A DNA stretch of 64,000 bases, from assembly GCF_004010195.1 (NCBI RefSeq), contig NC_057710.1:138008075-138072074 (forward strand), read 5' to 3'. Each line of letters begins with the position of its first letter. The first letter of the stretch is position 1. Under the pieces are notes generated by a model. That model did not search any database. It worked only from the letters and a program-made list of their open reading frames with translations, and was not told where the DNA came from. Positions 529-61,890 of the stretch are shown here, one piece after another. The position numbers were made by a program, and so were the translations under genes. The stretch comes from Chiloscyllium plagiosum. Its lineage: Eukaryota.

Positions 529-539
529 TTAGATACCTT

Positions 540-2457: not shown

Positions 2458-2565
2458 CTGAAATTTGGCTTTTTTTCGAGGTATGTTATCATAAGAATTG
2501 ATTTGTTCCAGAATTTCACGCACCTTGGGGTTAACATTTGATTCATTCATGATTTGATGGACTGT
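2458..2565 (-). CDS. LYAR: LYAR coding exon 3 (TVHQIMNESNVNPKVREILEQINSYDNIPRKKAKFQ)
   Basis: ag/gt bounded, 108 bp phase 0-0; DNIPRKKAKFQ is the conserved LYAR motif. Confidence 0.95.
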
Positions 2566-2720
2566 CTATATATGGGAAAACAGACTAAAGTTAACAGACA
2601 GAGAGGGAGCGCAAGAGCAAGACAGAGACAACAAGGTTCAAAACCCCAACAACCAATGAAAGATAAACTAAAACCATAGTTCTGTGGCAGCCTGACTCCA
2701 ACCATTTATGCAGCTTCTCG

Positions 2721-2975
2721 AATAGAATCCCAACATGTGGAAGCAGGCCATTTAGCCAATCGAGTCCACACTGACCCTCCAAAGACCCATCAGGACCCAA
2801 GCCTCTACCCTAACCCTGTATTCCCATCGCTAATCCACCTAACCTGCACATCCCTTGATACTGTGGGCAATTTAACACGGTCATTCCATACAACCTGCAC
2901 ATCTTCGGACTGTGGGAGGAAACTGGAGCATCAGAGGAAACATATGCAGACACAGGTAGAATTGCAAACTCCACA
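2721..2975 (-). mobile_element. HE1-type SINE, 5'-truncated
   Basis: Homologous to the copies at 23067-23456 and 32946-33250. Confidence 0.85.
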
Positions 2976-4054
2976 ATTTTCAAAATAAAACCCAAGTTCT
3001 CACAAGCTGTTTACTTTTTTGGCTTGGAAGAGACCACTTGGCAACCTTTGTTCGTTTAAAAAAAAAAGGACAAAATACACCTCTTAAAGTTTCATCACAA
3101 ATCTAAAATGCATACAACCTTTATTAAATAATACACACAATGTATGAAACACAGTTCAGTTCCTGAAAAAAAGAGTCATAGTTAAATATGAGTCATAGTT
3201 AAATATTAACTGCTTCTCTGTCCAGAGATGCTCAAAGACCTGCTGGGTTTCTCCAACACATTGTTTCCATGTCAGACTCACTATTACAATCAATAACAAA
3301 TGCTACAAACAAAAACTGCAGTAAACAATGATAAGAAAATATAACTTCATTTCCTTTTGCTTGATTACTGCACTTAAAAGCAGTATAAATTAGCAGCAGG
3401 TTTTCTTTTATAAAGGAAATTCTTTCATGGGTTACACATTTCTGGAGTAGGGGTAGGGACAGAATCACAGTGCCACAAGAGGGTCCCTCTCAAGGGGCTG
3501 AATTACCTCTGGCTGCTCATATGTTTAAATATTAAAGTACCAGAATCCAACTGCTCTTGAACTGGAGTCCACATTCAACAAAACAACATACACTGTATAC
3601 ACTCAAATCATTTTAAACTTCACTGCAGTTTCCAAAATTTTCTATTTTGATTTTTGAAATGACAGCATTTGCTTACACTGGAACTACGGGCAAACGTGCA
3701 CAATGTACCAGTGTCGGCAAATGTAGCCTTTCAAAATCTCCTGAAGTCAAGCGATCAGAATGGTTCAAGAAATTCTTGAATACACATTTAGTGCTTTTAT
3801 TAAATCCCCAAAAATCTCACTTAAGGCCTGCTGGTCATACGTGGTCTTATTTGATGTAATAAAAATGTATTCAACAGTGTTATGTAGAAACTTTTACACG
3901 ACTACCATCAACAACATAAAAGGTGGGCAAGATTTGATTAGAGTTGAGCAGCCCGCTACAACTGACAAACATTTTAAAACATGGATGAACTATTGCAGCC
4001 TTTTGAGTTCCTCGAAGCACACTAAGTGTGAGATGCAAAGAAAGATTTATTTAC

Positions 4055-4169
4055 CTCTATCCACTGCTGTTGTTTCAAATCACCTTTTTTGGCCTTGGCT
4101 TCAAATCCTTTACCACCATACTTTTCATCTTCACTGATGCATTTAATATGTGTCTTGTAATCCTCTCCC
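4055..4169 (-). CDS. LYAR: LYAR coding exon 2 ((W)GEDYKTHIKCISEDEKYGGKGFEAKAKKGDLKQQQWIE)
   Basis: tag acceptor, gtaaat donor, 115 bp phase 2-0; completes the second C2HC finger (HIKC). Confidence 0.96.
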
Positions 4170-4645
4170 CTATAAACAGTTGCAGACTTCTTTTCAGAGG
4201 ATTGTCAACTATTATTTTATTTCGATTATGTAGGAGTGAGCTTTTATTTACAATTTCATTGACCATAGTTAACAATGTAAGCGCAAACTTAAAGAGTAAT
4301 CTTCAAAGCTACAGCTGCAAAGATTAAATAGTTTAGCTCCACATATGCTGACAGCATGTTGAACTATATACAGTGCTATCAATTCAATCATTTTGCAACC
4401 ATCATTAGATAACAGCAGCAGGAAGACGGTGGGGGGAGATCACAGCTGGCACAATGTACAAGCATTATGTCAGCAGCAGCAGAGGTAACCAAAGTACAGC
4501 CTTACAAGCAATGGGAATGCCAATAAGTCATCTCAGATGAACATCAAAGTAAAACAAAACAAACTCTTAATAAAACCCTTAAAATTTAGATAGAATATGA
4601 CATCCATTAACAAGCTATAACCTCTTACGTACCCATGACACTTAC

Positions 4646-4767
4646 CAAAAGTCCTTCCCACAGTCAATACATGACAAACATGGACAATTCCGACAACTAT
4701 TAAAATGCTTTTCCACTTGAGCTTTCTTAACTGATGCTCCACATCCATTACAGATGAAGACCACCAT
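4646..4767 (-). CDS. LYAR: LYAR coding exon 1 (MVVFICNGCGASVKKAQVEKHFNSCRNCPCLSCIDCGKDFW); exon probably extends as 5' UTR to the acceptor at 4815
   Basis: ATG at 4767, gtaagt donor, 122 bp; LYAR-type C2HC zinc fingers CxxC...HxxxC and CIDC. Confidence 0.97.
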
Positions 4768-4975
4768 TTTTTTTTATTCTACGTCCCTTCTCCTCACTCA
4801 CCACAAAGCAATACCTGTAACACCAAAAAATATATCTCAGAAATGGAAAAATAATCAGTCCAAATATAGGCTTTACTAATGCTGATGTTCTCTTATTATT
4901 GCAGTTGGCTTTAGGATAATGGATGAAATAGTAAACATCAAATAAATCCTGTTATTCACACTTCTGTCCAGAGTC

Positions 4976-5110
4976 AGTTCTGATGAAAAGCCATTAATTT
5001 AAAAGATTAACACTGTTTTAAGCTTTCCATTCATGCTGCTTAACTTGCTGAGTATTTCTAGCATTTCCTGTTACACTTCAGGTTTCCAGTATCTACAGTA
5101 TTTTGCTTTA
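4976..5110 (+). mobile_element. Degenerate Penelope-like terminal unit (family B)
   Basis: cagttctgatga...atgctgcttaacttgctgagtatttctagcat...tttccagtatctacagtattttgcttt, homologous to 26156-26260. Confidence 0.6.
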
Positions 5111-5734
5111 CCAGGTGATAGAAAATTGGACCTATTCAAATAGGTCAGGGGATTTAACGAAGAAACTCAGTCAAATCTATTACAACAGTCACTAAGAGTG
5201 AGCAAATCACGAGAAAGGTGCAAAAGATATTAAGCACAGTACTAACGCTTACTTTCAGCAGTTAGCAAAAATGTTAAGGAGCAAGTAAAGAGGGAATTTC
5301 AGAGTTTAGGTCCAAGGCATTAGGAGGTTTGAGTGCCAACAGAGAGAAGAAGAAAATCATGAACAGAGAAAAGGCAAGAACTAGTCAAGCACAGAAGAGC
5401 TGTATGGCTGAATCAAGGACGAGAAATAGGAAGAGGCAAAATTACTTCGAGATTTTAAAAATCACGGCCTTGTTGCGCCAGAACGCAATGTAGATTCGAG
5501 GACAGGAATGATGGGTGGACAGGACTTAGTGCCAGTTAAGATCTTGGTAGCTGAGTTATGGGTACATTCCATTGGCTAGAAATTGGAAGGCCATTCAAGA
5601 GTGCAATGAAATAGATATGTGTAGGGATAGAGGAGAATTTCAGAAATAAGTATTTCTACCAAAAGCAGATGTAAACAAAGTTACACAGGTGAAAGAAAAT
5701 GGTACCAGTAATGGAAAAAGATAGCTCTGAAACC

Positions 5735-7856
5735 ATGGAAGGCAATGACATTATCATAATGTCAATGGACTAGTTATCCAGACCCCAAACTAATGTTAAC
5801 TTCTGGTAGAATTCAATAAAATATAGAACAAAAAGATGGCTTAACAGCAACCATGGAATCATTGTCGATTGTCATTTTAAAATAAAAGCTGCTCTACTAA
5901 GTCCTTTAGGGAAGGAAATCTGCCATTCTTACCTTAAATAAACCAAAGAATTGCAGATGCTGGAAATCTGAAATAAAAACAGAAGTCGTTGGAGGAACTC
6001 CACACATCTGGCAGTATCTGTGGAGAGAAAGCAGAGTTAGCATTGAGTCACAACTCTTCTTTTGAACTGTTTCTGTGTCGTTCTCACCTGTCTGGCCTAA
6101 TTAGTCTCCAGCCCCACAACAATGTGGTAGGCTAAATGCCCTCTTACATGGTCTAACAAATCATTTAGTTGTATCAAACTACTGCAAAGTTTAAAGGAAC
6201 AAAATGAAACAAGACAGACGGCTGGGATTAATCTCGAAATGACAACAGAAAACACAGCCTTGTCAACCTTGCAAAGTCCTCCTGATCAACATCTGGACCT
6301 TGCTCCCAAAATTGAGACATTCTCCACAGATTAGTCAACCATAATCATATTACAGAATGATATCTCAGAGACAATATCCCAGCCACTACCATCACCAATT
6401 CTGAGTATTTCCCACCAGCAGGACACAGGCAGCAGAGGTGGTAACACAGTGCTTTCCAGTCAGGAGGGAATTGTTGAGGAAGCCCTGAATATTGACTGAA
6501 GATCCTATGAAATTTCATAGGTGTCAAGTCAAACATAGGCAAAGATTTATGCTGCTGATTAGCATCTATCTCTCTGCCCTTCCTCTCCCTACCTCTCACC
6601 CAAAGCACTAAGCCTGTGCTGTGGTATAGATTTCATGAAGCATTACAGGCCATCAGCAGCAGCAGAACTGTACCCAACCACAATCTGTAACCCAGCACAT
6701 CCCCACTCTACTATCAGTCCTGATTCAGTGAAGGGTCCAGGAGGTTATGTCAAGAGAAGAACCAGGCACACCTAAAAGTGAAGCTACAATACAATATTAA
6801 TTGCATACCCAGCAGAAAAGGCATGAAATAGACAGGTCTAAGCGACACTGCAACCAAAGAACTAGATTTAAGCTTCTCAGTGCTGTGATAATAATTAAAC
6901 CAACAAGAGATGGAAACTCTACAAACAGCCTTATCCTCAACAATAAGGGGTGCCATTGTATCTTTTCTAAAGACAATGCTGAAGAATTGCATCCACGCCA
7001 AGCCAAAGTGCTGAGTAGATAATCCACCACAACCAACTTCAGAGGTGCCCAGCATCAAGGGATACCATGTTCATCCAAATCAATTCACTCCAATGGGATA
7101 TCAAGAAGTTGCTGAAGTCACTGAGTGCTGCAAGACCTTTGAGCACTGACAATATTTCAGTAATAGTACTGAAGACTTGTGGTCCAGAACAGATTGTGCC
7201 ATTAGGCAAGCTGTTCCTGTACCACTGTACAACACTGGCATCTACTGATAATCTGGAAAATTACCCAGTGAAGTCCTGTACACAAAAAAACAGGACAAAT
7301 CCAGCTGAGACATTTATTGGCCTCTTCATCTGGTCATGATCATCTTAGCACTCGCTGATGCTCAGCTTGAGTTCTGTCAAAGCCACTCGACACATAAATA
7401 AGAACAGAATTCATGAGATGAGATGAGAATAACTGACCTTGACCTCAGGGCAGCAGTTGAGCAAGAATGGGCAGCAAAATTCCCTAGCAAAGCTGGAAAC
7501 ATTGGGAAAGAGGGCAGTGGGAGCAAAGAGACAGAGACAGAGGGAGAGTACATGCAAGAGAGAGTGCGAGAGCACGAAACACACAGATAGATATGGATTC
7601 TTCCTCATACCTGACACAAAGGAAAATGGTTATATTTGAGGATTATTCATTTCGACAAAAGCTCCTCAGGGTAGTGCCCAGGGCCCAACCAGCGTCAGCT
7701 GATTTAATAATGACTTTCCCTTGATCGTAAAATCGAATTAGGACTGTTTACTGATGATTATAGAATGTGAAGCAAAATTGACGACAACTCAAATACTGAT
7801 ATAATCCTTGTCCTTTTGCAGCAAAGCCTGGACAACATCCTGACCTGGGTTAACAA
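5735..7856 (+). mobile_element. Old, fragmented CR1/L2-group LINE (endonuclease to RT remnants), interrupted by a minus-strand Penelope-like unit at ~5940-6069
   Basis: Remnant peptides DIKKLLKSL...PLSTDNISVIVLKTCGPEQIVPL and PQGSAQGP...NDFP (RT motif) with many stops. Confidence 0.65.
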
Positions 7857-7967
7857 ATCGAGAATGTGGTGCTAGAAAAGCGCAGCTGGTCAGGCAGCTT
7901 CAGAGGAGCAGGAGAATCAACATTTCGAGCATAAGCTCTTCAAGATCCGGAGGCCTCACTTTCTCCC
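7857..7967. mobile_element. Penelope-like unit (family A) with inverted 5' part, flanked by a 10-bp TSD
   Basis: gggttaacaa at 7847-7856 and 7968-7977; body inverted relative to the tail cctcactttctcc. Confidence 0.7.
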
Positions 7968-7979
7968 GGGTTAACAAGA

Positions 7980-8226
7980 TACAAGGGGTAAATTTTTTTT
8001 ACAGAGAGGGTAGTTCGCATGTGGCATGGACTTCCTGAAAAAGTGCTGGATGTGGGTATTATCAGAACGTTTAAAATACATTTGTGTAAGTACATGAATA
8101 AGAAAGGTTTGGAGGGACATGGGCCAGTAGAAGGCAGGTAGGACTAGTTTAGTTTGAGGTTATGTTAGGCGTAGACTGGTTGGACCAAAAGAGCCTGTTT
8201 CCATGCTGTACGACTTTATAACTATA
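7980..8226 (+). mobile_element. CR1 3' end
   Basis: FFTERVVRMWHGLPE-like frame, then the 3' hairpin region ggaccaaaagagcctgtttccatgctgta and tail. Confidence 0.8.
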
Positions 8227-8546
8227 GACAGGCAACAAAGGCAGGCAGAGTCAACAATGCCCAGATCTCATGAACAAATAAAAGAAATTCAGCTTGTAGC
8301 TAAAAATGATGTCAAGGTTGCATCAAGAGTTCACTCTCAGATAGTGGTCAGGAGGGATATAGTCTATGACAAGAACCAAATATAATAGCTTTGTTCTTCC
8401 CAATATTCAATAGAGGCACTTGACAGTCAATAGCATCAGACAATTGACAGATCACAAGTTAAGACATTCATCATAATGAAGCTGAAGGTTTATGTTGATG
8501 GGCAGATGAGAGTAGAATTGTTTGGAGCTGACTTGAAGAGAGATTG

Positions 8547-8679
8547 AGATTCCTGATGAAGGGCTTTTGCCCGAAATGTCGATTTTTCTGCTCCTCAGAT
8601 GCTGCCTGACCTGCTGTGCTTTTCCAACACCACTCTAACCTTGACTCTGATCTCCAACATCTGCAGTCCTCACTTGTAC
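8547..8679 (+). mobile_element. Penelope-like ~133-bp unit (family A) headed by a minimal hammerhead motif
   Basis: ctgatga-a-gggc-tttt-gccc-gaaa-tgtc at 8553-8580; flanked by cttgaagagagattg / cttggagagagattg (14/15 identical). Confidence 0.75.
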
Positions 8680-9024
8680 CTTGGAGAGAGATTGGGTGGA
8701 TATTTACTGCAATTAGAAATTGCAAATTCAGGAACATGTAACCCAATTTCCCATCACAATACTGACAGACTAAAATCAATATGAAAAATACTGCAGCCTC
8801 AGGTAGGGATTGTGAGCTCATCCAGCACAAGTAGAATACTTGAGTTGCACCACTTTTAACACTCACTCCTTTCACCACTAACATACAGAAGCAGCAGTCT
8901 GTGCTAGTTATAAAATACACTGCAGTAACTCTCCAATGCTACTCTGACAATTTAGAGACTCGAACATGCTTTTTTAGTAGTTTCACCAAAACTGTTGGCA
9001 GTGCCATTTTTCAATTTAAACATT

Positions 9025-9220
9025 GAACTAAAGTTGCATTTGCTCTCCATGAGAGCCTAAAAGATCACTTTGAAGAGGAAAGTTATCATGCAGTTAAGAC
9101 TTATATTTTGATCTTATTGACTGCTACATTACAACAATGACTATAGTTCAAAAGGATTTCACTGACCCTAAAGTACTTTGGATTGTCTTAAGGTTGTGAA
9201 AGATGCTATAACATTGTAAA
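9025..9220 (+). mobile_element. Degenerate DeuSINE (SacSINE1-like) fragment
   Basis: ctacattacaacaatgactatagttcaaaaggatttcactg...gttgtgaaagatgctata resembles the 3' half of shark Deu-domain SINEs (from recall). Confidence 0.55.
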
Positions 9221-9579
9221 CATTTATTTAATTGCAAATGTTAAGAAAAAAATATTACATTAGAGAGACTGAAACTCTCAAATCATCTTTAGGTATGTTA
9301 ATACATGTACCAAGCACGTGGGGTGGAGTGTAATGCAAAGTATAGAATAAAAGTTGACAACTCAAGTGGGGAGAGGGGAGCAATGCAGCTTACACCTCAG
9401 TGGGTCTTTACTGAAGAAATGCAGCACTGTTGAATGTGGGTTTTGTTAAACCTGACGGCCCTGTTTCGATTAAAGTACATTTACAAACGACTTAAAAATA
9501 TTGTTCAACTTAGAGCAGGAAGCCAGACAAGTTCTAGAATCAACATTACCAAAAAAACCAGGAACAATCTGAAATGGAA

Positions 9580-9960
9580 TGAGTTACCCTTCGATTCCGC
9601 TCGCTGCGGTACAGGACGTAAAACTTGCACAGCGAGGATGCACCGTCTGCTCTTTGCCCTCCTCAAGCAGGTCCCCCACCCCTCACAACGCACCCGAACT
9701 CACACGTGTGGTACCGGAACAAGGTGCAACACTCCGACTCTTCCCCTATGTCCTCATCACTGAGGTTCCGGGTGCAGCGTTCCTATAGGGCTCACTGTCA
9801 AAGGGGAATAGAGATGCCAGAAACCGGGGGCCAGGGCAGCACGGGCGACACGAGGGAGCGAAATCTGTAAACAATCAGGTAAAGAACCTTGCCCAGGAAT
9901 GGAACGCAGCCCGGTCCGGGGAAGGTTCCAATCGTTTGTTGCAAATGGGTATCGCCCAGT
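9580..9960. promoter_or_regulatory. Putative bidirectional CpG-rich promoter and non-coding first exons of LYAR (-) and ZBTB49 (+)
   Basis: Only clearly CpG-enriched non-repeat segment, between divergent genes; outward-facing donors gtgagt (minus, 9698-9703) and CAG|gtaaag (plus, 9879); CACGTG at 9703-9708; CCGGAA at 9714 and TTCCGG at 9766. Confidence 0.75.
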
Positions 9961-10555
9961 CCAAAACAGCGGAGGAGGATGGCTCCTTTTAACTGTGACC
10001 TAAACGACTGGAAAGGGGTTCAGAGGAGCCACAGCATCAGTTGGTTCGGTTGTCGTTCTCCTCTAACAGCCTCCCCTCTTCCTCCTGTTTGCACGTTCCG
10101 CCATCTGGTTACTTTGTGCCTCTCCCATGCTCGTACATTCTAGGCCCCGGGTCCCTTTTACTAATTGTTGTCCTGGAAACCCTCTCCTTGGGCTTGACAG
10201 TGCTTTTGCGAGAAAGGATGGAGTGATTGAGGATCATAATCTGTACTGCAGGATGAAAATCTGTTCAGGAGGAAAGCAGAATGGAAAACCCTTAGCTTTT
10301 CATTTTAATTTTGAACGTACTATGATAGTATCTTGTTGCTTTTTCTAAAAAAAATCTTCATTCACTTTATGAAATTTAATCTAATCTTTAAGTGTTTCGT
10401 GTATTCAATCGGAATTTGTTAATTTTTCGACTAGATGTGATTAAGGGTGGTATGACTTAAAGCATTTAACTTTGATGGGGAATGTAATACAGGATTACTA
10501 AAGAAGCTGTCAATACAGACAAGATAATTGCAGAGCTATGTACAGCAGCCCTTCT

Positions 10556-11620
10556 CAGAGTCATAGAGATGTATAGCACGGAAACAGACCTTCGGTCCAA
10601 CTCGTCCATGCCGACCAGATATCCCAACCCAATCTAGTCTCACCTGCTAGCACCCAGCCCATTTCCCTCCAAATCCTTCCTATTCATATGCCTTTTAAAT
10701 GTTGCAATTGTCCCAGCCTCCACTACTTCCTCTGGCAGCTCATTCCATACACGCACCACCCTCTGTGTGAAAACATTACCTTTTAGGTCTCTTACATATC
10801 TTTGCCCTCTAGTTCTGCACTTCCCCACTGCAGGGAAAATACCTTGTCTATTTACCCTATCCATGTCCCTCATGATTTTACAAACCCCTATAAGGTCACC
10901 CCTCAACCTCCAACGCTCCAGGGAAAACAGCACCAGCCTATTCAACCTCTCCCAATAGCTCAAATCCTCCAACCCTGGCAACATCCTTGTAAATCTTTTC
11001 TGAACCCTTTCAAGATTCACACCATCCTTCCGATAGGAATGAGACCAGAATTGCATGCAGTTTTCCAAAAGTGACCTAACCAATGTCCTGTGCAGCCACA
11101 TCATGACCTCCCAACTCCTGTAGTCAAAACTCTGACCAATAAACGAAAGCATACCAAATGCCTTCTTCACTATCCTATCTACTTGTGACTCCACTTTCAA
11201 GGAGCTATGAACCTGCACTCCAAGGTCTCTTTGTTCAGCGACACTCCCTAGGACCTTACCATTTAGTGTATAAGTCCAACTCAGGCTTGCTTTCCAAAAA
11301 TACAACACCTCACATTTATCTAAATTAAACTCCATCTGCCGCTCATTGGTTCATCTGATCAAGATCCCATTGTAATTCAAGGTAACCTTTTTCACTATCC
11401 TCTACACTTCCAATTTTGGTGTAACCTGCAAACTTATTAACTAAACCTGTTAAGTTCACATCTTTTTGTCATTTATATAAATTATGTAGCAGTGGACCCA
11501 GCACTGATCCTTGTGGCACTCCACTGGTCACATGCCTCCAGTCTGAGAAACAGCTCTCCACCACCACCCTTTGTCTTCTACCTTTGAGCCAGTTCTGTAT
11601 CCAAATGGCTAGTTCTTGTC
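10556..11620 (-). mobile_element. 5'-truncated CR1 (RT C-terminal region and 3' UTR)
   Basis: ORF 10640-11335 MEFNLDKCEVLYF...QRDLGVQVHSSLK...FTQRVVRVWNELP; (CTCTATGA)n tail. Confidence 0.93.
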
Positions 11621-12639
11621 GCAATTTTACATGTCATTTCGCACTAACAAACCTAGATCTAGTCCATCTGTCACCACTAACAATAATTGCAATTAAACAA
11701 CATTTTAATCCACCAGATTTTTTTTTTGTTTTGTTATTCTTCATGACATGGAATGTTTTAAAGCAAAACACACTGTAAATTACTGGACAGGTCAGCAGGC
11801 ATCTATAGAGAGAGAAACAGAGTTAATGTTTCAGGTTGATGACTATTCATCGGAATTAGCAAAAGTTAGAGATGTTTAAGGTTTTAAACAAATGAAAGAA
11901 TAGGTTAAAGAACAGAGGGGCAAGAGAGGTTAAGTATCAAAAGGGTCGCGAGGCTGAAGAAAGTGTTCATGGAACAAGTGAAAGAAGAAAAGATCTCAAG
12001 ATGACATCTAAATGACAAACTTCTTACAGAGTGTGAAAGGCTTCAAAATATCTGGGAGACGGTGCTTCTTCTGAGCCACAGTCCGCAGTCAAAGCTGTGA
12101 AATAGAGGCAGGTTGGCACCTGATGTTAGGAGACATTTACATTTGTCAAACTCTGTGGAAAACTTGTACGATTTTCATTTACTTTGCACCTTAACAGTAT
12201 ACAAAAAGCTTTATCCTTACTTATCTGTGATGGATTTCAAGGTCTGATCTCTTCATGCTTAATATTTTTTAAAAATGTCAATTTTTAATGTAGTTTTTGA
12301 TTCTAGTATCTTTAGGAATGTGGCATTCCTCTCATTAATGTAGTCAACAGCATTGCGGCTTTTCCTCTGACAATTAGCAATTTGAGATATGTGAACTATT
12401 AGCTGCAAATTAAAAAGAAATGCTAATACTATTGGATTTAGTTTAATTTCAGTACTTCCTTATAATGTATAACAAATAATTCTCGCTTCTAAATTTTTCC
12501 AATTAAGTATTATATTAAACCAGTGTTACTAAACAGCTATCTAAATTATGAATAACATGGAGAGTATTTTCTTAATAATGAGGAGTATAAAATATGTCAA
12601 TAATTGTCAAAGCTTAACATTCTATTCTTCAACAGAAAT

Positions 12640-13220
12640 TAAGCAGTGTATAAGTAAGAACGGAATGCATTTTCATAGCTTGCCCCAATTTTCTCCTGAC
12701 TCTTAATATTCCATTTCTTTCTGAGCTGAGACACAAAACTTCATATCCGACGCAGCTGCATAACCACCAACCTTCGCTTCAAATATTTTTGTCATCTCTA
12801 CTCTTTATCTCTTTATCCACTGCAACTGAAAATCATCATTCACGTCTTTACTTTTTCAACACTTTGTTCATCGTTTCCTGGAATCCACCATAAACTTCAA
12901 CACATCCTTAAAATTGCAGCATATCCACCATCCTTCTTAAAGCCCCATACATCTACTACGCTGGTTCTTGTCAACCTTTATTACCACCCTGTTGCTCTGG
13001 AACGTTAACTTCAAAATTCTTGTCTATAAAATCTTTGTTCCTTCTGTTATGCCAACTCAGGTCTGCTGTGCATTTCATTTCCCCTGTTCTTTCATTGATG
13101 GTAGTCACTCAATATACCCAACACATTGGAATTTACCTTACCTAAAGCAACCTGCTTTGCGACATTTCTTCACACTTTTCAAAGTCTGTTTAGATCCAGC
13201 ATCTTCACGTATTCTTGAAA
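12640..13220 (+). mobile_element. Highly degenerate L2-like LINE 3' region
   Basis: Remnants of HKLQHI..IAA and NFKILVYK, typical of the L2 ORF2 C-terminus. Confidence 0.5.
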
Positions 13221-13435
13221 AACCTCCAGTAACTCCTCCTTGTCCTGTCCAATTTTAAATCTTTTGGTGCTGCATTCTGCACTTTTCCCACCCAGAGCTA
13301 TCACACTTGAATCATCTTATTTTTGAGACAGCTGACACCTAAAAGTTTAGTTCCCCTCCAAAACTGCAGGAAAAGCTCACACAATGTTTGCTATTTTAAG
13401 TGTTAAAATGGGGAACATTGCTTAGTTGTTTAATT

Positions 13436-13670
13436 TCACCTCCATCCCCACCCCATTCACCTATTGTATTCTTTGCGACCTTCACCCCAGCCCCACCCCC
13501 CTATTTATCTCTCCATCCTGGAGGCTTCCTGCCTCTATTCCTGATGAAGGGCTTTTGCCCGAAACATCGATTTTCCTGCTCCTCGGATGCTGCCTGACCT
13601 GCTGTGCTTTTCCAGCACCACTCTGATCTAAACTTTGGTTTCCAGCATCTGCAGTCCTCACTTTTGCCTA
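13436..13670 (+). mobile_element. Penelope-like 3' terminal fragment (family A) with hammerhead motif and upstream pyrimidine-rich segment
   Basis: ctgatga-a-gggc-tttt-gccc-gaaa-catc at 13541-13568; downstream part ~85-90% similar by eye to 8581-8679. Confidence 0.75.
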
Positions 13671-14126
13671 GCTTGAAGAATAAACCATAGAACAAATTAC
13701 AGGGGTGTTAGTCTCAACTTTTCAATGTTGTGCCAAATGTATGGACTAATTACAGCTTCAATCTAAGGAGTAGGAGTAAACCACATACATTTTTGAGTCT
13801 CTTCTAACATTCAGTATGATTATGGCTCATGTTTGACATAAATTACTTTTTCCCACTTCCTCCAATGCCTTAATTCCCTGAGAGACCAAAAACCATAAGC
13901 ATCTTTGTTATTCCAAGTGCTACTGTACTTGATGTCTGCTATCTGCTTTCCTGTTGATTGACCATGGGCCTCTATTTTTATCAGAATATCACAAGAGTGT
14001 AAAGGAACTGTAAAGATTAGGAATTGATCATTTGGAAAGTTAAGATGTACAAAACTGTAATTCAGGACAGCAAGCTGGGAAGTTACATATAAGTTGGGTT
14101 TTCCTTTCTCAGCTATTTGAAACTGC

Positions 14127-14196
14127 GGTGTGGACTTGTTGGGCCGAAGGGCCTGTTTCCACACTAAGTGATCTAATCTAATCTAATCTAAAAAAT
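14127..14196 (+). mobile_element. 70-bp 3' tail of an HE1 SINE flanked by a perfect 71-bp direct repeat
   Basis: ggtgtggacttgttgggccgaagggcctgtttccacac plus (ATCTA)n; 14056-14126 identical to 14197-14267. Confidence 0.9.
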
Positions 14197-26155: not shown

Positions 26156-26260
26156 AATTCTGAAGAAGGGTCGCACAACCCGAAATGTTAACTCTGATTT
26201 CTCTGCACAGCTGCTGCCAGGCCTGTTGAATTTTTTCCAGCAATTTCTGTTTTTGCATCT
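26156..26260 (+). mobile_element. Penelope-like unit (family B) with hammerhead motif
   Basis: ctgaaga-a-gggt-cgcaca-accc-gaaa-tgtt-aact at 26160-26193. Confidence 0.65.
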
Positions 26261-28621: not shown

Positions 28622-29203
28622 GAGAAAAGCACTAACTCACCTGTATGGCTTTCTTGATTTTATTTTTGATCTTGCCACTGGACACATGCCTGACCTCTTC
28701 CCTTCCTGCCTTCATGACTCCGGCAAACAGTAACTAGCTTTGTGGAAGATCAGAGTTGTAAATCTCAAGGCAGACTTGTTTGTTTTCACTGGAATTTAGA
28801 AGAGTGAGATGTGATTTGATTCAAGTATATAAGACTCTGAATTGTCTTGACCAGGTGGAAATAGAAAGGGTGCTTCTTTTTGTGGATGAGTCCAGATCAT
28901 TGAGGCACTGTTTTAAATTTAAGGGTTGTCCTTTTTAGGACAGATATGAAGAGAATGTTTTTCTGAGGAATGGCCGACTTTGGAACTCAGGGCCTCAGAA
29001 AGAGATGGAGGTGGGGCCACTGAATATTTAACAGCTGTGCAGTAAAGTGGTGTCCCGTAGCCACTTATGAAATCAAAAAGCTGTGTTTGGAACCAAAAAT
29101 AAAAGTTGCCTTAACTTTGTATGCATTAAATTTGTTTATAATTTATGTATTTAAAATGGTGCCGGACTACGGCAACTTATACACATTTTACTGTATTTTC
29201 ACA

Positions 29204-29332
29204 TTCCTGATGAAGGGCTAATGCCGGAAACATCGACTCTCATGCTTCTAAGATGCTGCCTGACCTGCTGTGCTTTTCCAGAGCGACAGTTTTCGACTCT
29301 GACTTTGCAGCATCTGCAGTCCTCACTTTCTC
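29204..29332 (+). mobile_element. Penelope-like ~129-bp unit (family A) with a perfect 13-bp TSD
   Basis: ctgtattttcaca at 29191-29203 and 29333-29345; starts ttc-ctgatga-a-gggc-taat-gccg-gaaa-catc. Confidence 0.8.
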
Positions 29333-29939
29333 CTGTATTTTCACAAATACATGTAACAATAAATTACCACTCTTTACTATTTATAAAGTGGTGTACATTG
29401 ATTCCCTTACCAAACAGAAATCTAAGGGGCAAACCAAAATGTGCAATTCAAACCTTAAAAAGTGTAGCCATGATTCTACTGAATGGTGGGGTATTGCGAG
29501 GGACTAAATGGCCTACATCTGTTTCTCATTCATACGTTTCCTCAGTGCAGAAAATTGATGGACTATGCAAACCTCTTCATACCCTTTCTTTGGGAGGAGT
29601 GGCTTCACATTTGGGAGTAGGTTGAAGAGGAATTTAGAAAGGCACAGTTAGTTGAACAATGGAAGAAATAAATCTTGTAACACTATAGGATTCTGATTTT
29701 ATATCTCACCTTATGTCTGAAAAATACAAGGGTTGATAGGTTTAATTGAGGTGATCAAATAAGATTAGCCCACAAGCAGTATAAGAGCTTACATACAACT
29801 TTTCCTGTTACGTATTGATTCTGTACTGACATACTTTTTGCAACACTGCTTGATACTAATAAACTAATCAAAGTCTTTGAATACTTGTGTTGCAGTATGT
29901 AGCAATGAATCTTTTAAATCTAATTTGTTAAAATTTTAG

Positions 29940-33250: not shown

Positions 33251-35799
33251 AAATAGAGATGGGAAATAAATGCCGGCCCAGCCAGCAACATTCACCTTCC
33301 CTGCACCAAATAAAAATAAGGAAATTATATGACTGATTCATAGCAAACTGGTCAGACGACCATTAACAAGCAATGTAACAATTTGTCAATCATAGAGCAA
33401 AAATATTGGCGTCTGATTGAAGAATTGCAAAGAAACAATGGGACTGAAAATCAGAGTTGCAGCGAAGCTTAAGTATTACTATCCAGGAGAAAGCTTTTCT
33501 TCAAAAGAAACTTGAGATTTGTCTGATATTAATTGTTTCTTGATTCATTGTGGTTTGTTTCTCTTCCTGTATCTGCACATCTGGCATACCCTCATTCTAT
33601 TTGCCTATGTACATTTATTGTAATTGTAATGTCTCTGAATTCTCATTTCTTTCTGAAAGCCTGTTTTTGCCATTTACCTTCTTCCACTACTTATTTTCTT
33701 GTTGGTTTATATTCATTTTGTGTATATTTCCTTTTTAAAATTTACCAAAAATGACAGTATAAATTTCAAGGAGTGCATGTGTGTGCGCACGCATGTGTGT
33801 CTTTGTGTCTTCGGATCTGGTTTAAGATGCGGCAATACAATGTAAAGATAATGCTGGTGTTGAGTTGGATCTGAAGATGTAAGTTGGCAGTTGTGTGTGA
33901 GAAATCACTATTTCGGGAGTCATTTCAAAATATAAAGTTTTTTTTAAATATGCATTTTCCCCCAATTTACCTGACTTTCAGATACAGTTTAATAGAAAAC
34001 ACAGATCAGATTTCTGTATAGAGCAAGAATTACAACTTACTGCAAGTAATTTCATTCTAGCTATAGGTAAATTTTATATGCAAATTAAAACTCTAGTGAC
34101 CTTTATCAACTTATCCTTACCCACACACCCACACAGACGGACAATCAAAGTAAAAATAGTTTTTAAAAAATGAAAGAACTGTGGATGCTGTAACTCAAAA
34201 ACAAAAACAGAAATTGCTGGAAAAGCATAGCAGGTCTGGCAGCATCTGTGGAGAGAAATCAAAGTTAATGGTTTTGGTTGAGTGATCCTCAGTGGTCAAA
34301 ATCGAGTGAAATAGGTTGTGGACAGGAGAAAACTGGAAAGACAGTTTAGTAGTCTTTGTTCCTAGCTTCTGTTGTTGAGATGATCTTTCTGACTCTTCTG
34401 TGGGCCAGCACATTACTTTAATTGTCTTTCTCTAGAAGTTCCAATGTTTGTTGAGAGACACGTGACTGATATGCTCATTTAAAAAGTCTAGCTTACCAAT
34501 TAAAAGTCAAAGCATCTGGCAGCATCAGTGGGAAGAAAGTTTTTATTTCAGATATCCAGCATCTGTAGTTTTTTCATATAATACCACTCCTCAACTAAAG
34601 AAGAATTAACACTTCTCTCTCTGTACTTGTTCTCAGTTCCAAGCTGTTCAGTTACCTCACAACCAACCTCACAGTTGTTAGTAGGCAAAATAGCCTCTGT
34701 CACTGATAACTGGTCACTAGTCCATAGACTAATCAACGTCTTGCTATCAGCAAAAGCTATGTCAGTACATCCACTCAACTACAAATCATTTGGCAATTCA
34801 TCTTTCAATTACTGCTTATTCAGACAGTTGTTTGCATGGTGCCTGATGTAGGTGTCCAGTTATTTGCTTTCAAATCTCCAACCACCCTGTCAAACACTCA
34901 TTTTTAAAACAGCTCTCCTATTGGAGAGCTCAAATATTAACAGTGCCATGCTTTAAAGGATACCTTAAAGGCAAGACGTACATGTGAGTAGACATTGGGA
35001 TAAGTTTACAGCCAAAGCAAAGGTCGAGTACGATAGGCATCATTTCTGTTGCAGGTGGAGCACCTCAATGAGGCAGAGTATCCAATAAAATTTATAAGAT
35101 GAGGGCATCACTGGCTGGGCCAGCATTATTGCCAACCCTAGGTTTTCATTGAGAAAATGGTGCAATCAAGCAGTCTTCTTGAACAATGTACAGTTCAATG
35201 CTCAGTACAGTGGGAGATTGCAAGATACCCTGACATATCAATGAGTGTGAATGAGTCCTGCACCAACTTTGCACAGGGCTTTGTGGCTAAGTCCATCAGC
35301 ACTGGGTTGAACGTGGTGCAGCATCGAGTAGGCAATATCTCAGCTTTCATTGTGGTACAAGCAGAAGCCACACAATGGCTGAGTAGTGCAGCAGAGACTT
35401 AATGTTTGTTCAAGTCAGCTTGATGTATGTCTGGTTAGCAGTGTTCAAAGGAAACCCTGGAGTCTCCCAGCATTCCAGTAATGTTTCCTCCAATATTTTA
35501 GGAGGAAAGTTGACCCATCACTCCAGCAGAATGACAGTGGCTGTGTGGAGCATGAACCAGTTGTCTTCTGTCAGGGTGACAGCGTTTGTGCCTCCCACCA
35601 CTGACACTCTGCTCCTAGCCAGCCCAGACTGCTGCACCCATGCTGAGATGGTACTGTGCAGAGCGGGAGTTTTTAAATCCAAAGCTGTTCTGGATCACCA
35701 TCCAAGGCCATCTTCAGGGTCCCTAGTGGAAATTAGTGAAAATTAGCTGTTGGCCACCAGCCACACTAGGTTAAGACATGTTACTAATTAACCAATTTG

Positions 35800-41812: not shown

Positions 41813-43445
41813 TAGAACATAGAACAATACAGTGCAGAACAGGTCCTTCGGCCTTCAATGTTGCACCAACCTATGAACTCATCTAAGCCCATCCCCCTAC
41901 ACTATCTCATCATCATCCATGTGCTTATCCAAGGATTGTTTAAATCTCCCTAATATGGCTGAGTTAACTACATTGGCAGGCAGGGCATTCCATGTCCTTA
42001 CCACTCTCTGAGTAAAGAACCTGCCTCTGACATCTATCTTAAATCTATCATCCCTCAACTTGTCTTTATGCACCCTCATATAAGCTAATGTCATCATCCT
42101 AGGAAAAATACTTTCACTGTCTATCCTATCTAATCCTCTGATCATCTTGTATGTCTCTATCAAATCCCCTCTTAGCCTTCTTCTCTCCAATGAGAAAAGA
42201 CTCAAGTCGTTCAGCCTTTCCTCATAAGACCTTCTCTCCAGACCAGGCAATATCCTGGTAAATCTTCTCAGCACCTTTTCCAATGCTTCCACATCTTTCT
42301 GTAATGGGGCGACCAGAACTGCATACAATATTCCAAGTGCGGCCACACTAGCGTTTTGTATAATTGCAGCATGACATTACGGCTCCAGAACTCAATCCCT
42401 CTACCAATAAAATTTAACACACTGTATGCTTTCTTAATAGCACTATCAACCTGGGTGGCAACTTTCAAGGATTTCTGTACATTGACTCCATGATCCCTCT
42501 GTACATCCACACTACCAAGAATCTTTCCATTGACCCAGTATTCTGCCTTTCTGTTACTCTTCCCAAAGTGAATCAACTCACATTTATCTGCATTGAACTC
42601 CATTTGCCATTTCTCAGCCCAATTCTGCAGTTTATCCAAGTCCTCCTGCAACATTCTTCCACACTGTCCACTAATCCAGCGACTTTAGTGTCATCTGCAA
42701 ACTTTCTTAACCATCCACCAATGCCTGCGACCAAGTTATTTATAAAAATAACAAACAGCTGTGGTCCCAAAACAGATCCTTGTGGCACATCACTAGTAAT
42801 GGGACTCCAGGCTGAATATTTTCCATCAACCACCACTCGCTGTGGCTCCAAGTAGTGGAGAGTTTTCTCCTTGATTTCAGTCAACTTCTATTTTATTGAG
42901 GTTCCTTGATGTCACACTTGGTCCTGAACTGCTGTGCTTTTCCAGCACCACTCTAATCTAGATTCTGGTCTCAAGCATCTGCAGTCCTTGTTTTTACCTA
43001 GTTGATTTCAGTAAAACCTTTGATAAGGTTTCACATGGTAGGCCGTTTGAGAAAATGCAGAGGCATGGGATTGAGGATGATGTAGCAGTTTGGATTAGAA
43101 ACTGGCTTTCTGTAAGAAGACAGCGAGTGGTGGTTGATGGAAAATATTCAGCCTGGAGTCCCATTACTAGTGATGTGCCACAAGGATCTGTTTTGGGACC
43201 ACAGCTGTTTGTTATTTTTATAAATAACTTGGTCGCAGGCATTGGTGGATGGTTAAGTAAGTTTGCAGATGACACTAAAGTCGCTGGATTAGTGGACAGT
43301 GTGGAAGAATGTTGCAGGGGGACTTGGATAAACTGCAGATTTCTACCCTCATCCACATGCTTGGTCACCTTCTCAAAAAACTCAGTGAGGTTTGTGGAAC
43401 ATGACCTGCACTTGACGAAACCATGTTGACTATCTGCAATCAAAA
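41813..43445 (-). mobile_element. Rearranged CR1 with an internal inverted duplication and two captured fragments
   Basis: RT motifs [18 protein letters not shown] and KFADDTK occur on both strands (42624-42843 vs 43120-43339). Confidence 0.9.
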
Positions 43446-43699: not shown

Positions 43700-44600
43700 T
43701 GCTGAAGGTGATGTTCTTCCTTCTCATTGGCCTCATATCCTTCCTTGGAACACTGCTGTTGCTCTGCCAGTGTCTCCCACATCCACTCATTGCCTGCTTC
43801 AGTTGTGCAGGGCACAGCATGCTAGGATAATGCAGCACATTCTTTCTGGACTGTACTGAAGATCCCCACATAGTCCGGATAGATCGTGATGAAGAGCTGA
43901 TGCTTGAACGGCGATCCTCCTGCTCCTCAGATGCTGCCTGACCTGCTGTGCTTTCTCAGCACCACATTCTTCAACTCTGAGCACCAGCATCTGCCGTCCC
44001 CAGTTTCTCCCAGATAGATCTAAGCACAGCATCTCATCTACATGAGGTCTATTGTCTGATTCACAATGGTTCTGCTGAAAGGATGGGCAGCATTGCAGTT
44101 AGTCTTGGCCTCAGTGATGAGATTGTGTAAGGGAGTCATCAGACAAGGTTATAGAGGGCCCTTGTTTCACAGTAACCATCCCTTGGAAGGCAACCAACCC
44201 TTGAAATGGAGCAGGAACATGAGAGTTCTCAGGGACTCTCAAGACATGGGCATCTTGACAGCTCTTAAGATACTTGACACAGACTTTCAAGATGTGATAC
44301 TGATGATTGCAGATGACCTCTACATTGACGGAATGGAATCTTTTTCTGTTGATGAAGTCAGCTGCATTATGATATAATACTCCCCGTGCGATGTGTGTGC
44401 AGAATGCCTTGTCCCTGCGGGAGCCCAGTGACATTGGCAAAGCCTGCTGCCCAGGCTGCAGCACTGAGTTTGCCACAGGGAAACAAGATGAAATGGTGTG
44501 GTCTGACACATATTGCATCAGTGACAATATTTAGTCCATTCCCTGGACCACATCTGTGTCCTTTGAGTTTGATTGTACTTATTTGTCGTCTTAACACTTG
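43700..44600 (-). pseudogene. Decayed PIF/Harbinger (HARBI1-like) DDE transposase, interrupted by a Penelope-like unit at 43886-44012
   Basis: FCTHIA...NAADFINRKRFHSVNVEVICNHQYHILKVCVKYLKSCQDAHVL and LQYSPERMCCIILACCALHN correspond to Harbinger motifs IDCTH, NRKGFHS.NVQ, GS.HD and C.LHN. Confidence 0.85.
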
Positions 44601-46844: not shown

Positions 46845-48420
46845 GAAGCTTGGAATTATTATGGTGCAGAAAGAGGCCATTTGGTCCATCATGCCTGCAC
46901 TGACTGTATTATCTAGTGCCATCTTCTACCTTTTCCCCATTTCCCTGCACACCATTACTCCATTACTATCCAAAAAATGATCCACTGCCCTCTTGAATAC
47001 CTCATTTCCAGGTAGTGCATTCTAAACACTACCAACAAAGTGTTTTCTCATATCACCACTGATTTGTTTGCACATCATTTAAAATCTATGCCCTCTCATT
47101 CTTGATTTTTGTATAAGCAGAATCAGCTTCTGCCTATCTACTCTGTCCAGCCTATTCACGATTTTGAAAACCTCAATCAAATCTCCTTTGAGTCTTCTTC
47201 CAGGGACAACAGACCCAACTTCTTCAATCTGTCCACATAACAGAAGTTCCTCATTGCTGGAACTATTCTTGTGAATTGCTCCTGCACTCTCTCCAATGTA
47301 TTTGCATCTTTCCTATCATTTGGCACCTGCAAAAGTATACAATAATCTAGCTGAGGTCTGACAAGTGTCTTTTCCAAATTCAAAATCACCTTCTTGCTCT
47401 TGTATTCTGTGCCGCTATTAATAAAGTGGAGAACACTGGATGCTTTATTAGCTGCTCTCTGAGTCCCTGAAGAAGGGTTACACGCGAAAGATCGACTTCT
47501 CCGCCTCCTGATGCTGCCTGGCTTGCTGTGTTCTTCCAGTCTCCTGCTTGTCTACTTTGGATTCCAGCTTCTGCAGTTTTTTTGTCTCTCTCCATCTCTC
47601 CTGACACCTTCAATGATCAAGCCACATGTATACCCAGGTCCTACTGCTCCTGAGCTCCCTTTACAATTGTACCCAAAGTTTTCTATCATCTTTCAAAATG
47701 CTTCAGACGAAAGTGCATCACATCACACTTGTTGACCCTCATCTACCATCTATCCACTCACTCCACCAACTTTCAATGTCTTTTTGGATTTTTACACCGT
47801 CCTCCTCAGTTTACAATTCTTCCGAATTTAGTGCCATCTGCAAACTTTGAAACTGTCCCATACGCACCAAGACTTAGATCAATATCTGCCTGGAAAAGCA
47901 AGGGCCCTGATACTGACCTCTGGGCAACACTACTATGAACCTTCCTGCAGCCTGAAAACTATTCATTGGTCATACTGCCTGTTTCCTAACACAGCCAATT
48001 TTGTAACCATGTTGCCTCTGTCTCTCTTATATCATTATCTTCAACTTTCCTCACAAGTCTGCTGTGAGGCAGTGTGTCAAATGCCTTCCAGAAATCCCCG
48101 AATGCCAGATTATTCTTACAACCCTTTCTGAAAAAGACCATAATATTGGAAATTCTCCAGCCTTCTGACATCTCTCTGGAGTCCAGGGAAGACAACCAGT
48201 GTCTCTATAATTTCTATCCTCGATTCCTTAAAATCACTGAAAGTCCTTGGATGTATCTCATCAGAACCCAGTGCTTTGTCAACTTTAAGACCCATCAGTT
48301 TATTCAAGACTTCTTCATCATTTAATTCTGGTCACTTCTGGTGGCAGAGTTTCTTCCTCTATCACTGAACCACTCTATGACTGAGGCAGCATCCTCCTCC
48401 TTTAAGAAGACAGATACAAA
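46845..48420 (-). mobile_element. Old CR1 remnant containing a plus-strand Penelope-like unit at 47461-47585
   Basis: LVRPQLDYC...LERVQEQFTRIVP, DFWKAFDTLPHSRL and KVDKALGSDEIHPR remnants. Confidence 0.8.
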
Positions 48421-61639: not shown

Positions 61640-61890
61640 TCCTCATTTAGATTCTTCACCCACTATGCACTCCACTCTCCTCACTGACCTCTCACAATTA
61701 CCCCTCCACCTGCATCCACCTATCACTTTCCCAGCTACCTTCACCTCAGTCCCACCCCCCACCCCCCAATTCATCTCTCAGCCTCCTTCCCCCTCCGCAT
61801 TCCTGATGAGGGGCTTATGCCCGACTCTCCTGCTCCTCGGATGCTGCCTGACCTGCTGCGTTTTTCCAGCACCACACTATTTGACACTGA
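61640..61890 (+). mobile_element. Penelope-like 3' terminal fragment (family A) with a deleted hammerhead core
   Basis: Homologous to 13436-13670; ctgatga-g-gggc-ttat-gccc-ga followed directly by ctctcc. Confidence 0.72.

What the first reader, a model, noticed from the sequence alone, without database searches (positions are those of the whole stretch)
8547..8590. Minimal type-I hammerhead ribozyme motif recurring in short Penelope-like repeats, with helix II covariation
Seen: 8553-8580 reads CUGAUGA-A-GGGC-UUUU-GCCC-GAAA-UGUC. This is the hammerhead core (CUGANGA...GAAA...UH) around a 4-bp helix II, with an extra A after A9. Homologues lie at 13541, 29207, 43886, 47467, 61803 and 7915-7942 (minus). 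Helix II covaries (GGGC/GCCC vs GAGC/GCUC at 7927-7938 vs GGGU/ACCC in family B) while its loop varies freely. Helix III is replaced by a tiny palindrome: the variants AUGU and ACAU are both CpG-decay products of an inferred ACGU. Established: Penelope-like elements carry minimal hammerheads that lack a stable helix III and are thought to cleave as dimers, and an extra A after A9 is tolerated in a natural viroid hammerhead. Inference: these copies come from a self-cleaving RNA retroelement now sitting in introns of both LYAR and ZBTB49. Helix I is weak in family A and individual copies are mutated, so activity of these particular loci is doubtful.
Basis: partly seen in the sequence, partly recalled or inferred. 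Interest (0 to 1): 0.75.

Follow-up and report, generated by a model that had tools for sequence, protein, structure and literature searches.

The report
Shark Penelope stub carrying minimal hammerhead
This is a real but already known type of tiny self-cutting RNA motif inside a 130-base leftover of a Penelope-type jumping gene that litters this shark genome; such leftovers mostly start at the motif's first letters, so they were likely copied from the uncut front end of the element's RNA, and this copy is probably inactive.

Summary
The motif at 8553-8580 is exactly as described. It lies in a 131-bp insertion (8549-8679, 15-bp target-site duplication) that is the terminal repeat (pLTR) of an RT + GIY-YIG Penelope-like element of a bamboo shark, with roughly 600,000 copies by extrapolation. 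Across lineages the core is conserved; helix I, helix II and the 3·8 pair covary (one young lineage has U3·A8). This is the published minimal hammerhead of Penelope-like elements; this scan has noted it 287 times.

Corrections: four of the six listed homologues lack an intact core or helix II, and the 8553 copy is antisense to LYAR and upstream of ZBTB49.

Extra results: 5' ends pile up at the helix I 5' strand, 30-33 nt below a TATA-like box (61 of 129 events). 3' ends fall in two clusters about 38 nt apart. 22 of 25 head-to-head pairs join one long and one short arm. Ends at the cut site are rare and ambiguous. Most stubs are therefore likely run-off cDNAs of uncleaved RNA. A decayed sister copy (5934-6069) overlaps a spliced LYAR 5'-UTR exon. 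Cleavage and the start site were not tested.

The parts
8549..8679 (+). Focal insertion: short pLTR stub of a family-A1 Penelope-like element, from the first base of helix I to the distal 3' end class
   Evidence: 5' end called at -4 and 3' end at about +127/129 relative to C3; 89% identical to the 13537 copy
8532..8546 (+). Left target-site duplication (15 bp), followed by 2 extra bases (8547-8548)
   Evidence: 14 of 15 identical to 8680-8694
8680..8694 (+). Right target-site duplication
8549..8552 (+). Helix I 5' strand (AUUC); A8549 is the inferred transcription start of the source element
   Evidence: sequence; 5'-end pile-up; start site inferred
8553..8580 (+). Minimal hammerhead core: CUGAUGA 8553-59, extra A 8560, helix II 8561-64/8569-72, GAAA 8573-76, decayed palindrome AUGU 8576-79, predicted cut after C8580
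8581..8584 (+). Helix I 3' strand (GAUU): C-G, U-A, U·U mismatch, A-U
13440..13670 (+). Family-A1 copy carrying at least 100 nt of the element's 3' UTR upstream of the motif (core at 13541); sense in ZBTB49 intron 1; ACAU mismatch
26156..26245 (+).
29203..29335 (+). Family-A stub, G10.1-G11.1 mismatch, sense in a ZBTB49 intron
43884..44018 (+). Family-A stub with broken core (C3G, GAAC)
47463..47590 (+). Family-B stub, broken helix II
61678..61886 (+). Family-A copy with upstream 3' UTR; GAAACGUC deleted
7866..7942 (-). 5'-truncated family-A stub lacking C3-A6, GAGC/GCUC helix II
34168..34289 (-). Decayed family-C stub
5934..6069 (-). Decayed family-C stub overlapping a spliced LYAR 5'-UTR exon (donor at 5932-5931; likely acceptor CAG 6020-6018 with branch-point-like CTAAC 6040-6036)
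   Evidence: score 64 vs shuffle maximum 15
42923..43005 (+). Family-A fragment truncated downstream of the ribozyme

Best explanation
The motif is the minimal type-I hammerhead in the terminal repeat of an abundant RT + GIY-YIG Penelope-like retrotransposon, and the 8549-8679 copy is a likely inactive stub, probably made by copying the uncut front end of the element's RNA. Shown: motif, covariation between lineages, linkage to the ORF, partial tandems, target-site duplication, sharply clustered 5' and 3' ends. Inferred: a promoter in the upstream repeat starts transcription at or near the first base of helix I, so the ribozyme is the first ~36 nt of the mRNA. The element's protein nicks target DNA and starts reverse transcription internally, about 85-95 or 124-130 nt downstream of C3, as shown in vitro for the anole element. 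On the 5' repeat it then runs off the RNA's 5' end after only ~90-135 nt. Priming of both target strands, one at each start site, would give the head-to-head pairs with one long and one short arm. In the source elements the ribozyme would cut slowly, as a dimer through the ACGU palindrome or with help from the element's protein, removing the 5' ~32 nt; cutting is evidently not needed to make most insertions.
For: ORF linkage: a 242-aa frame ending about 160 nt upstream of the motif carries GIY-YIG and a CX4CX2C linker; its longer relatives carry RVT_1 and/or GIY-YIG; in 16 of 20 fetched loci the repeat lies within ~330 nt downstream of the ORF's C-terminal match, and L066 shows endonuclease - repeat - new ORF in partial tandem. 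77 of 110 long family-A copies have a same-strand ORF match upstream against 2 of 46 short ones within 400 nt (the long set is enriched by the protein search). Covariation: majority pairs per lineage change on both sides at I.1, I.2, I.3, II.4 and 3·8; on 11 picked copies 5 of 10 pairs have double changes, score 0.378 vs 0.223 +/- 0.029, slid controls <= 0.093. Core identity between lineages 0.85 vs 0.37 upstream and 0.53-0.55 in two downstream segments; within 18 sampled long copies 5/179 core vs 95/653 flank differences. 5' ends: 10.3% per nt at -5..-1 against 0.82% downstream and 0.94% upstream in 154 sampled family-A copies, repeated in a second sample and in lineages B, C, D. 24 of 25 head-to-head pairs have an arm ending at -10..+5; 22 of 25 are long + short, permutation P = 1.3e-4. 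TATAAAT or TTTATCT begins 30-33 nt upstream of A2.4 in 6 of 7 lineage references.
Against: No cleavage assay and no mapped RNA 5' end. TTTATCT (lineages A, B) is a poor TATA box, and the initiator match is cheap in pyrimidine-rich DNA. The one mapped Penelope promoter (D. virilis, PMC2377424) is TATA-less and starts well upstream of the ribozyme, with an intron between. 6 of 154 arms end exactly at the cut site (window 26-29: P = 0.015), so some templates may have been cleaved. 35 of 129 events end inside or below the ribozyme, which run-off alone does not explain. The covariation rests on four or five related lineages and on copies I picked as intact, so the shuffle counts are not probabilities. 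In the window's own lineage pair I.3 is a U·U mismatch (156 of the 203 parsed copies) and a competing hairpin is more stable than the hammerhead fold (-9.0 vs -5.2 kcal/mol). The GIY-YIG hit on the window-linked frame itself is below Pfam's cut-off (E 0.025).
Confidence: 0.88

Rival explanations
1. Same element and motif, but the fixed 5' edge of the stubs is not a transcription start. It would be a reverse-transcriptase stop or template-switch point set by RNA structure, bound protein or a 3' splice site at the start of helix I.
For: Lineages B, C and D have YAG at positions 2.5-2.3 after a pyrimidine tract, and in D. virilis the intron ends at the 5' end of helix I (PMC4209133). 79 of 154 arms have an inverted partner, and palindromes at inverted junctions have been read as self-priming, possibly on an antisense template (PMC3846280).
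Against: Lineage A, the most abundant, has no AG there yet shows the same edge. An enzyme stalled by the fold should stop at the 3' side of the ribozyme, which it meets first. Non-inverted copies show the pile-up too (6.9% vs 0.74% and 0.26% per nt, n = 75). A canonical TATAAAT lies at -30/-31 in C and D.
Confidence: 0.3
2. Self-cleavage is an obligatory step: the template is a monomer cut at both repeats and possibly circularised (the Cervera and De la Pena model), and the stubs are truncation products of it.
For: Conservation and covariation show selection for the fold in source elements. 6 of 154 arms begin exactly at G1.1.
Against: 4 of those 6 are inverted arms whose junction falls where the two strands of helix I give microhomology. 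Counted by event it is 3 of 129, and among non-inverted copies the excess is not significant (P = 0.26). A circular template gives no reason to stop 4 nt above the core. In vitro the anole element inserts equally well with a dead ribozyme (PMC11167929).
Confidence: 0.15
3. The 8553 copy is a domesticated ribozyme that regulates LYAR or ZBTB49.
For: It keeps every core base and lies about 1 kb from the shared promoter region (CpG-rich at 9501-10000).
Against: It is antisense to LYAR and upstream of ZBTB49 exon 1. It has a decayed palindrome, no second sense copy nearby and a weak helix I. About 80,000 equally intact-looking copies are expected genome-wide (26 per 1.149 Mb).
Confidence: 0.03
4. 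The hammerhead-like pattern is a chance product of a repeat's sequence.
For: Rfam finds no hammerhead here, and the 36-nt fold is only modestly more stable than shuffles (z = -1.9).
Against: Five pairs, including the tertiary 3·8 pair, change on both sides between lineages whose upstream flanks are 37% alike, at the position where Penelope-like elements are known to carry this motif.
Confidence: 0.02

Closest known systems
Minimal hammerheads (min-HHR) in pLTRs of metazoan Penelope-like elements (Cervera and De la Pena 2014, PMC4209133; parts 1-2 of 4 of the text read, one of two supplementary files searched)
   Same: Type-I topology, no helix III/loop 3, palindromic 15.2-16.2, extra base between 9 and 10.1, G10.1-C11.1, short helix I, mostly single dispersed copies, pairs in opposite orientation, a U3-A8 variant.
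   Different: Shark (no 'shark', Callorhinchus, Leucoraja or Chiloscyllium in the searched supplementary file). Helix II is only 4-5 bp. Estimated copy number is far above the 4,000-9,000 they report for coelacanth and Xenopus. The most abundant lineage has a U·U in helix I.
Poseidon element PAc of Anolis carolinensis (Frangieh et al. 2024, PMC11167929; parts 1-2 of 4 read)
   Same: Hammerhead at the pLTR-ORF junction, two 3' end classes about 30-40 nt apart downstream of it (the 'tail'), insertions made mainly from uncleaved RNA, both target strands primed in vitro.
   Different: Here the likely ORF start lies about 170 nt below the ribozyme rather than in stem II, and the linker has the CX2-5CxxC motif of Neptune/Nematis. 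The paper does not describe a fixed 5' edge at helix I in the parts read.
Neptune clade of endonuclease-bearing Penelope-like elements (Craig et al. 2021, PMC8557442; 12 passages read)
   Same: C-terminal GIY-YIG, zinc-finger-like linker, partial tandems, inverted 5'-truncated partners, tail often at only one end.
   Different: Clade placement by tree was not done; the linker alone does not separate Neptune from Nematis.
Non-LTR retrozymes (Li et al. 2026, doi 10.64898/2026.07.22.740005; part 1 of 5 and passages read, supplements closed)
   Same: Short non-coding type-I hammerhead repeats related to pLTRs; one chondrichthyan was sampled.
   Different: Defined by tandem arrays of hammerhead units; the copies here are single stubs or head-to-head pairs with sequence continuous with the autonomous element.
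Adineta vaga Penelope elements (Arkhipova et al. 2013, PMC3846280; 8 passages read)
   Same: Putative TATA plus initiator in the pLTR, head-to-head inverted pLTRs with palindromic junctions, 8-10 bp TSDs, tail on one arm.
   Different: Start site was not tied to the ribozyme in the passages read; the authors favoured self-priming on an antisense template.

Membership tests
min-HHR of Penelope-like elements | Core CUGANGA ... GAAA ... UH | tested here: met
   Intact at 8553-8580; majority in lineages A, B, C; UUGACAA in 30 of 40 lineage-D copies
min-HHR of Penelope-like elements | Helix II with G10.1-C11.1 and an extra base after A9 | tested here: met
   Extra A in 196 of 203 A copies; II.4 C-G in A, U-A in B, C, D
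min-HHR of Penelope-like elements | No helix III; palindromic 15.1-16.1 for dimer pairing | tested here: met
   ACGU is the majority or the CpG parent in all lineages; the focal copy has AUGU
min-HHR of Penelope-like elements | Helix I of 4-5 bp with covariation | tested here: met
   Perfect 4 bp in A5, B, C, D with double changes at three pairs; in the focal lineage only 3 of 4 pairs form
min-HHR of Penelope-like elements | Located in the pLTR of an RT + GIY-YIG element | tested here: met
   (A 77/110, B 5/13, C 2/3, D 1/8 long copies with an ORF match upstream)
min-HHR of Penelope-like elements | Self-cleavage as dimer or with protein help | not testable with these tools
   Needs an in vitro assay; the genomic footprint at the cut site is inconclusive
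Endonuclease-bearing Penelope-like element | Single ORF with RT followed by GIY-YIG | tested here: met
   L066 and others match a 723-aa RVT_1 + GIY-YIG protein over residues ~100-717, with stops and frameshifts
Endonuclease-bearing Penelope-like element | Partial tandems, inverted partners, optional 30-40 bp tail | tested here: met
   L004, L022, L066 tandems; 25 head-to-head pairs; 3' ends at about +81-96 and +124-130
Neptune clade | CX2-5CxxC linker between RT and endonuclease | tested here: met
   CX4CX2C seen in translations; motif definition from PMC8557442
Neptune clade | RT phylogenetic placement | not tested
   No named Neptune, Nematis or Poseidon reference proteins were fetched
Rfam hammerhead families (Hammerhead_1 and others) | Covariance-model match | tested here: not met
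   No hammerhead family among the 2 matches at E <= 10
Non-LTR retrozyme | Tandem array of two or more non-coding units each with a complete hammerhead | tested here: not met
   Window copies are single and kilobases apart; one two-unit tandem of 118-nt units was seen in L061

The most novel reading that the evidence does not exclude
The shark genome is a fossil record of the Penelope replication cycle at very large scale. The ribozyme is the first 36 nt of a TATA-driven capped mRNA and acts as a slow self-decapping switch between translation and copying, not as a monomer-release device. A dimeric RT primes both target strands at two sites 38 nt apart, and both cDNAs run off at the cap and are joined through the ribozyme's own helix I complementarity, giving hundreds of thousands of 90-135 bp stubs and asymmetric head-to-head pairs. 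Some stubs carry a ready-made splice acceptor just below the cut site and are being recruited as host exons, as at LYAR.
Probability: 0.3. Interest if true: 0.62.

Novelty: new member of a known kind. Interest (0 to 1): 0.33.

Why it matters
The motif itself is published, and the focal copy is probably dead. What matters is the open question of what hammerheads do in Penelope-like elements. This genome offers several hundred thousand dated insertion junctions and natural variants (perfect helix I in A5, B, C, D; U·U in the most abundant lineage; U3·A8 in a young lineage), which make that question testable by junction statistics, CAGE and a small cleavage panel. A sister stub overlapping a LYAR 5'-UTR exon suggests these stubs can supply host exons.

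Tried and rejected
Rfam scan at E <= 10: no hammerhead family. Sequencing-run search with an element stretch: no RNA holder listed; not used as evidence. Laying four runs on window 1-20000: useful for host splice joints only. Depth over the repeats comes from other copies; run X21 laid nothing; the one raw run is poly(A) single-cell and showed no start or end pile-up at the motif, which tests neither cleavage nor the start site. A closer lay on 5780-9950 was not obtained, so the upstream boundary of the 5933 exon and its joint to LYAR exon 1 remain inferred. Cleavage footprint: looked promising (3 ends exactly at +28 in each of two samples) but weakened once inverted arms were separated. Untemplated G opposite a cap: no consistent extra base in the 12 TSD-bounded junctions. 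Unknown-subfamily artefact for the 5' pile-up: only 1 of 46 copies ending at -12..+5 had an element-like upstream flank. Lineage A4 had too few long copies for a reference and was left out of the end-calling. Copies with an N at the junction (11 of 165 sampled family-A copies) and anchors scoring under 30 (52 of 248) were dropped before counting ends. Lineage-D loci are biased against ends at the cut site because the query began a few bases above it. The 120 sampled stretches were round coordinates that I chose on large contigs, not random draws. Lunse et al. (PMC5785218) is not held; I saw only its title and a summary passage in PMC6765202. Literature searches that found no paper on shark Penelope hammerheads or on run-off stubs: (listings only); the library lacks most subscription papers, one supplementary file of PMC4209133 could not be searched, and the supplements of the 2026 preprint are closed, so a shark example may be in print there.

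Full report
Observation. A sensitive self-comparison finds a dozen related segments of about 80-230 bp. Most listed homologues are damaged: only 8553 and 13541 keep CUGAUGA, helix II and GAAA together, and each has a CpG change in the ACGU palindrome. Rfam has no matching model.

What the repeat is. A search of the window's genome (3.56 Gb) with the 13541 copy returned near-identical copies whose similarity runs up to 1.2 kb upstream. That upstream DNA encodes the C-terminal part of a protein with a CX4CX2C linker and a GIY-YIG endonuclease that ends about 160 nt before the motif. The protein has 175,360 first-look candidates in the genome (candidates are not copy numbers), and its longer relatives carry RVT_1 and/or GIY-YIG. 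In 16 of 20 fetched loci the repeat follows the ORF's end within about 330 nt. L066 shows endonuclease, repeat and then a new ORF starting about 170 nt below the motif, the partial tandem typical of Penelope-like elements. The linker points to the Neptune or Nematis group (PMC8557442, passages); no tree was built. The host is a bamboo shark: the ZBTB49 exon is 100% identical to a Chiloscyllium plagiosum record.

Abundance. In 120 stretches of 10 kb (1,148,972 non-N bases) I anchored on a box downstream of the ribozyme, so copies were not selected for the motif. That gave 248 anchors, 196 assignable to lineages (A 165, C 20, B 8, D 3). Extrapolated, this is about 600,000 copies. 26 of the 165 family-A copies look intact, or about 80,000 genome-wide.

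Is it a ribozyme fold under selection? Extra lineages were collected with queries from the part below the cut site. Majority pairs per lineage: I.1 is C-G in A and B and U-A in C and D; I.2 is U-A except C-G in D; I.3 is U·U in most of A, U-A in A5 and G-C in B, C, D; II.4 is C-G in A and U-A in B, C, D; II.2 is G-C, G·U or rarely A-U; the tertiary 3·8 pair is C-G except U-A in the young lineage D (30 of 40). The same U3-A8 swap was reported in Schistosoma (PMC4209133). On 11 copies picked as intact, 5 of 10 pairs show double changes (18 of 500 shuffles) and the covariation score is 0.378 against 0.223 +/- 0.029, with slid controls at or below 0.093; relatedness and my picking inflate this. 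The core is 85% alike between five lineage references against 37% upstream, and among 18 sampled long copies it differs at 2.8% of non-CpG sites against 14.5% in the flanks (partly subfamily variation in the flanks). The window's own lineage is the weak one: a competing hairpin is more stable than the hammerhead fold, whereas in A5 and B the hammerhead fold is the minimum-energy one.

How the stubs were made. 5' ends of 154 sampled family-A copies stop at 10.3% per base at -5..-1 relative to C3, against 0.82% below and 0.94% above; the second sample of 56 repeated the first of 98, and B, C and D show the same edge. Counting head-to-head pairs once, 61 of 129 events end at -10..+5, 4 at -59..-11, 29 further up and 35 below. 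3' ends cluster at about +81-96 and +124-130, matching the two internal start sites and 30-40 bp tail shown for the anole element (PMC11167929). 12 of 59 short non-inverted copies have a target-site duplication against 0 of 289 shuffled pairings; the focal copy has one of 15 bp. In 24 of 25 head-to-head pairs an arm reaches the 5' edge, and 22 of 25 combine a long with a short arm (P = 1.3e-4). TATAAAT (C, D) or TTTATCT (A1, A3, A5, B) begins 30-33 nt above the first base of helix I, and 6 of 7 references match the recalled initiator consensus there. I infer that the RNA starts at helix I and that most stubs are run-off cDNAs of uncleaved RNA (about 60% likely). Against this, the mapped Drosophila promoter is TATA-less and starts upstream of an intron (PMC2377424, abstract and discussion read), and B, C and D have an AG at the edge that could be a splice acceptor.

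Cleavage footprint. 6 of 154 arms begin exactly at the base after C17. Four are inverted arms joined where the two helix I strands give microhomology, which fits a cleaved template or a fold-back equally well. Among non-inverted copies the excess is not significant (P = 0.26).

Locus. Spliced joints place LYAR on the minus strand (coding exon 4645-4811 and below) and ZBTB49 on the plus strand from about 9588. LYAR exon 1 likely ends at a donor at 9587-9586 (inferred), which puts 8553 in LYAR intron 1 but antisense. The three sense copies in ZBTB49 introns (13541, 26160, 29207) are each damaged. Activity at this locus is unlikely. Separately, the joint 4811-5933 is seen in three runs of two organisms, with at least 72 letters on the shorter side in one read. 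The exon lies in a decayed lineage-C stub (5934-6069) that has a branch-point-like CTAAC, a pyrimidine tract and CAG at 6040-6018. Its upstream boundary was not observed.

Verdict. A new member of a known kind: the minimal hammerhead of Penelope-like elements (PMC4209133). My literature searches found no shark case and no description of the fixed 5' edge, but the scan's own index holds 287 similar notes, several with the same reading; these are not independent support, and my reading was written down first. The long-plus-short arm asymmetry and the LYAR exon are what this window adds. Interest 0.33.

Noticed in passing
window 5933-6069 (minus): A spliced LYAR 5'-UTR exon lies inside a decayed lineage-C pLTR stub; the likely acceptor (CTAAC, pyrimidine tract, CAG) starts at the dead ribozyme's cut site. 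Joint 4811-5933 is seen in runs X20, X7 and X1 (two organisms). Upstream boundary not observed.
   Followed up: partly
lineages C and D, e.g. L211:1469-1540, L190: Both lineages carry a pyrimidine tract and CAG followed by ATG about 20 nt below the cut site, a ready-made splice acceptor that lineages A and B lack. It could promote exonisation genome-wide.
   Followed up: no
L206-L230 (lineage D): Young lineage (96-99% identical copies) with the U3·A8 core, a self-complementary AGCU helix I, a canonical TATA box at -31 and many perfect inversions centred on the AGCT; a good candidate for a cleavage assay.
   Followed up: partly
25 head-to-head pairs in L076-L155 and L256-L295: 22 of 25 pairs have one arm with the tail and one without; none has two long arms.
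   Followed up: yes
window 9588-9876: ZBTB49 exon 1 and the inferred LYAR exon 1 appear to overlap on opposite strands in a small CpG-rich region (head-to-head genes).
   Followed up: partly
window 42621-42843 and 43120-43342: A 223-bp inverted repeat, 99% complementary, flanking a 276-bp spacer that holds a truncated family-A stub.
   Followed up: no
window 38944-39705 and 50848-51608: Two about 760-bp inverted copies of another repeat, 89% complementary.
   Followed up: no
L085 minus strand, about 5675-5820 from its end: Tandem array of a 36-nt unit derived from the lineage-B box downstream of the ribozyme.
   Followed up: no
L061, minus strand: Two-unit head-to-tail tandem of a 118-nt stub, each unit with a mutated core; resembles a nascent retrozyme.
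   Followed up: no
window 14126-14165: Many RNA reads end here with poly(A)-like tails and heterologous upstream sequence: the 3' end of another, expressed repeat family.
   Followed up: no
window 51690-52401: Assembly gap of 712 N.
   Followed up: no
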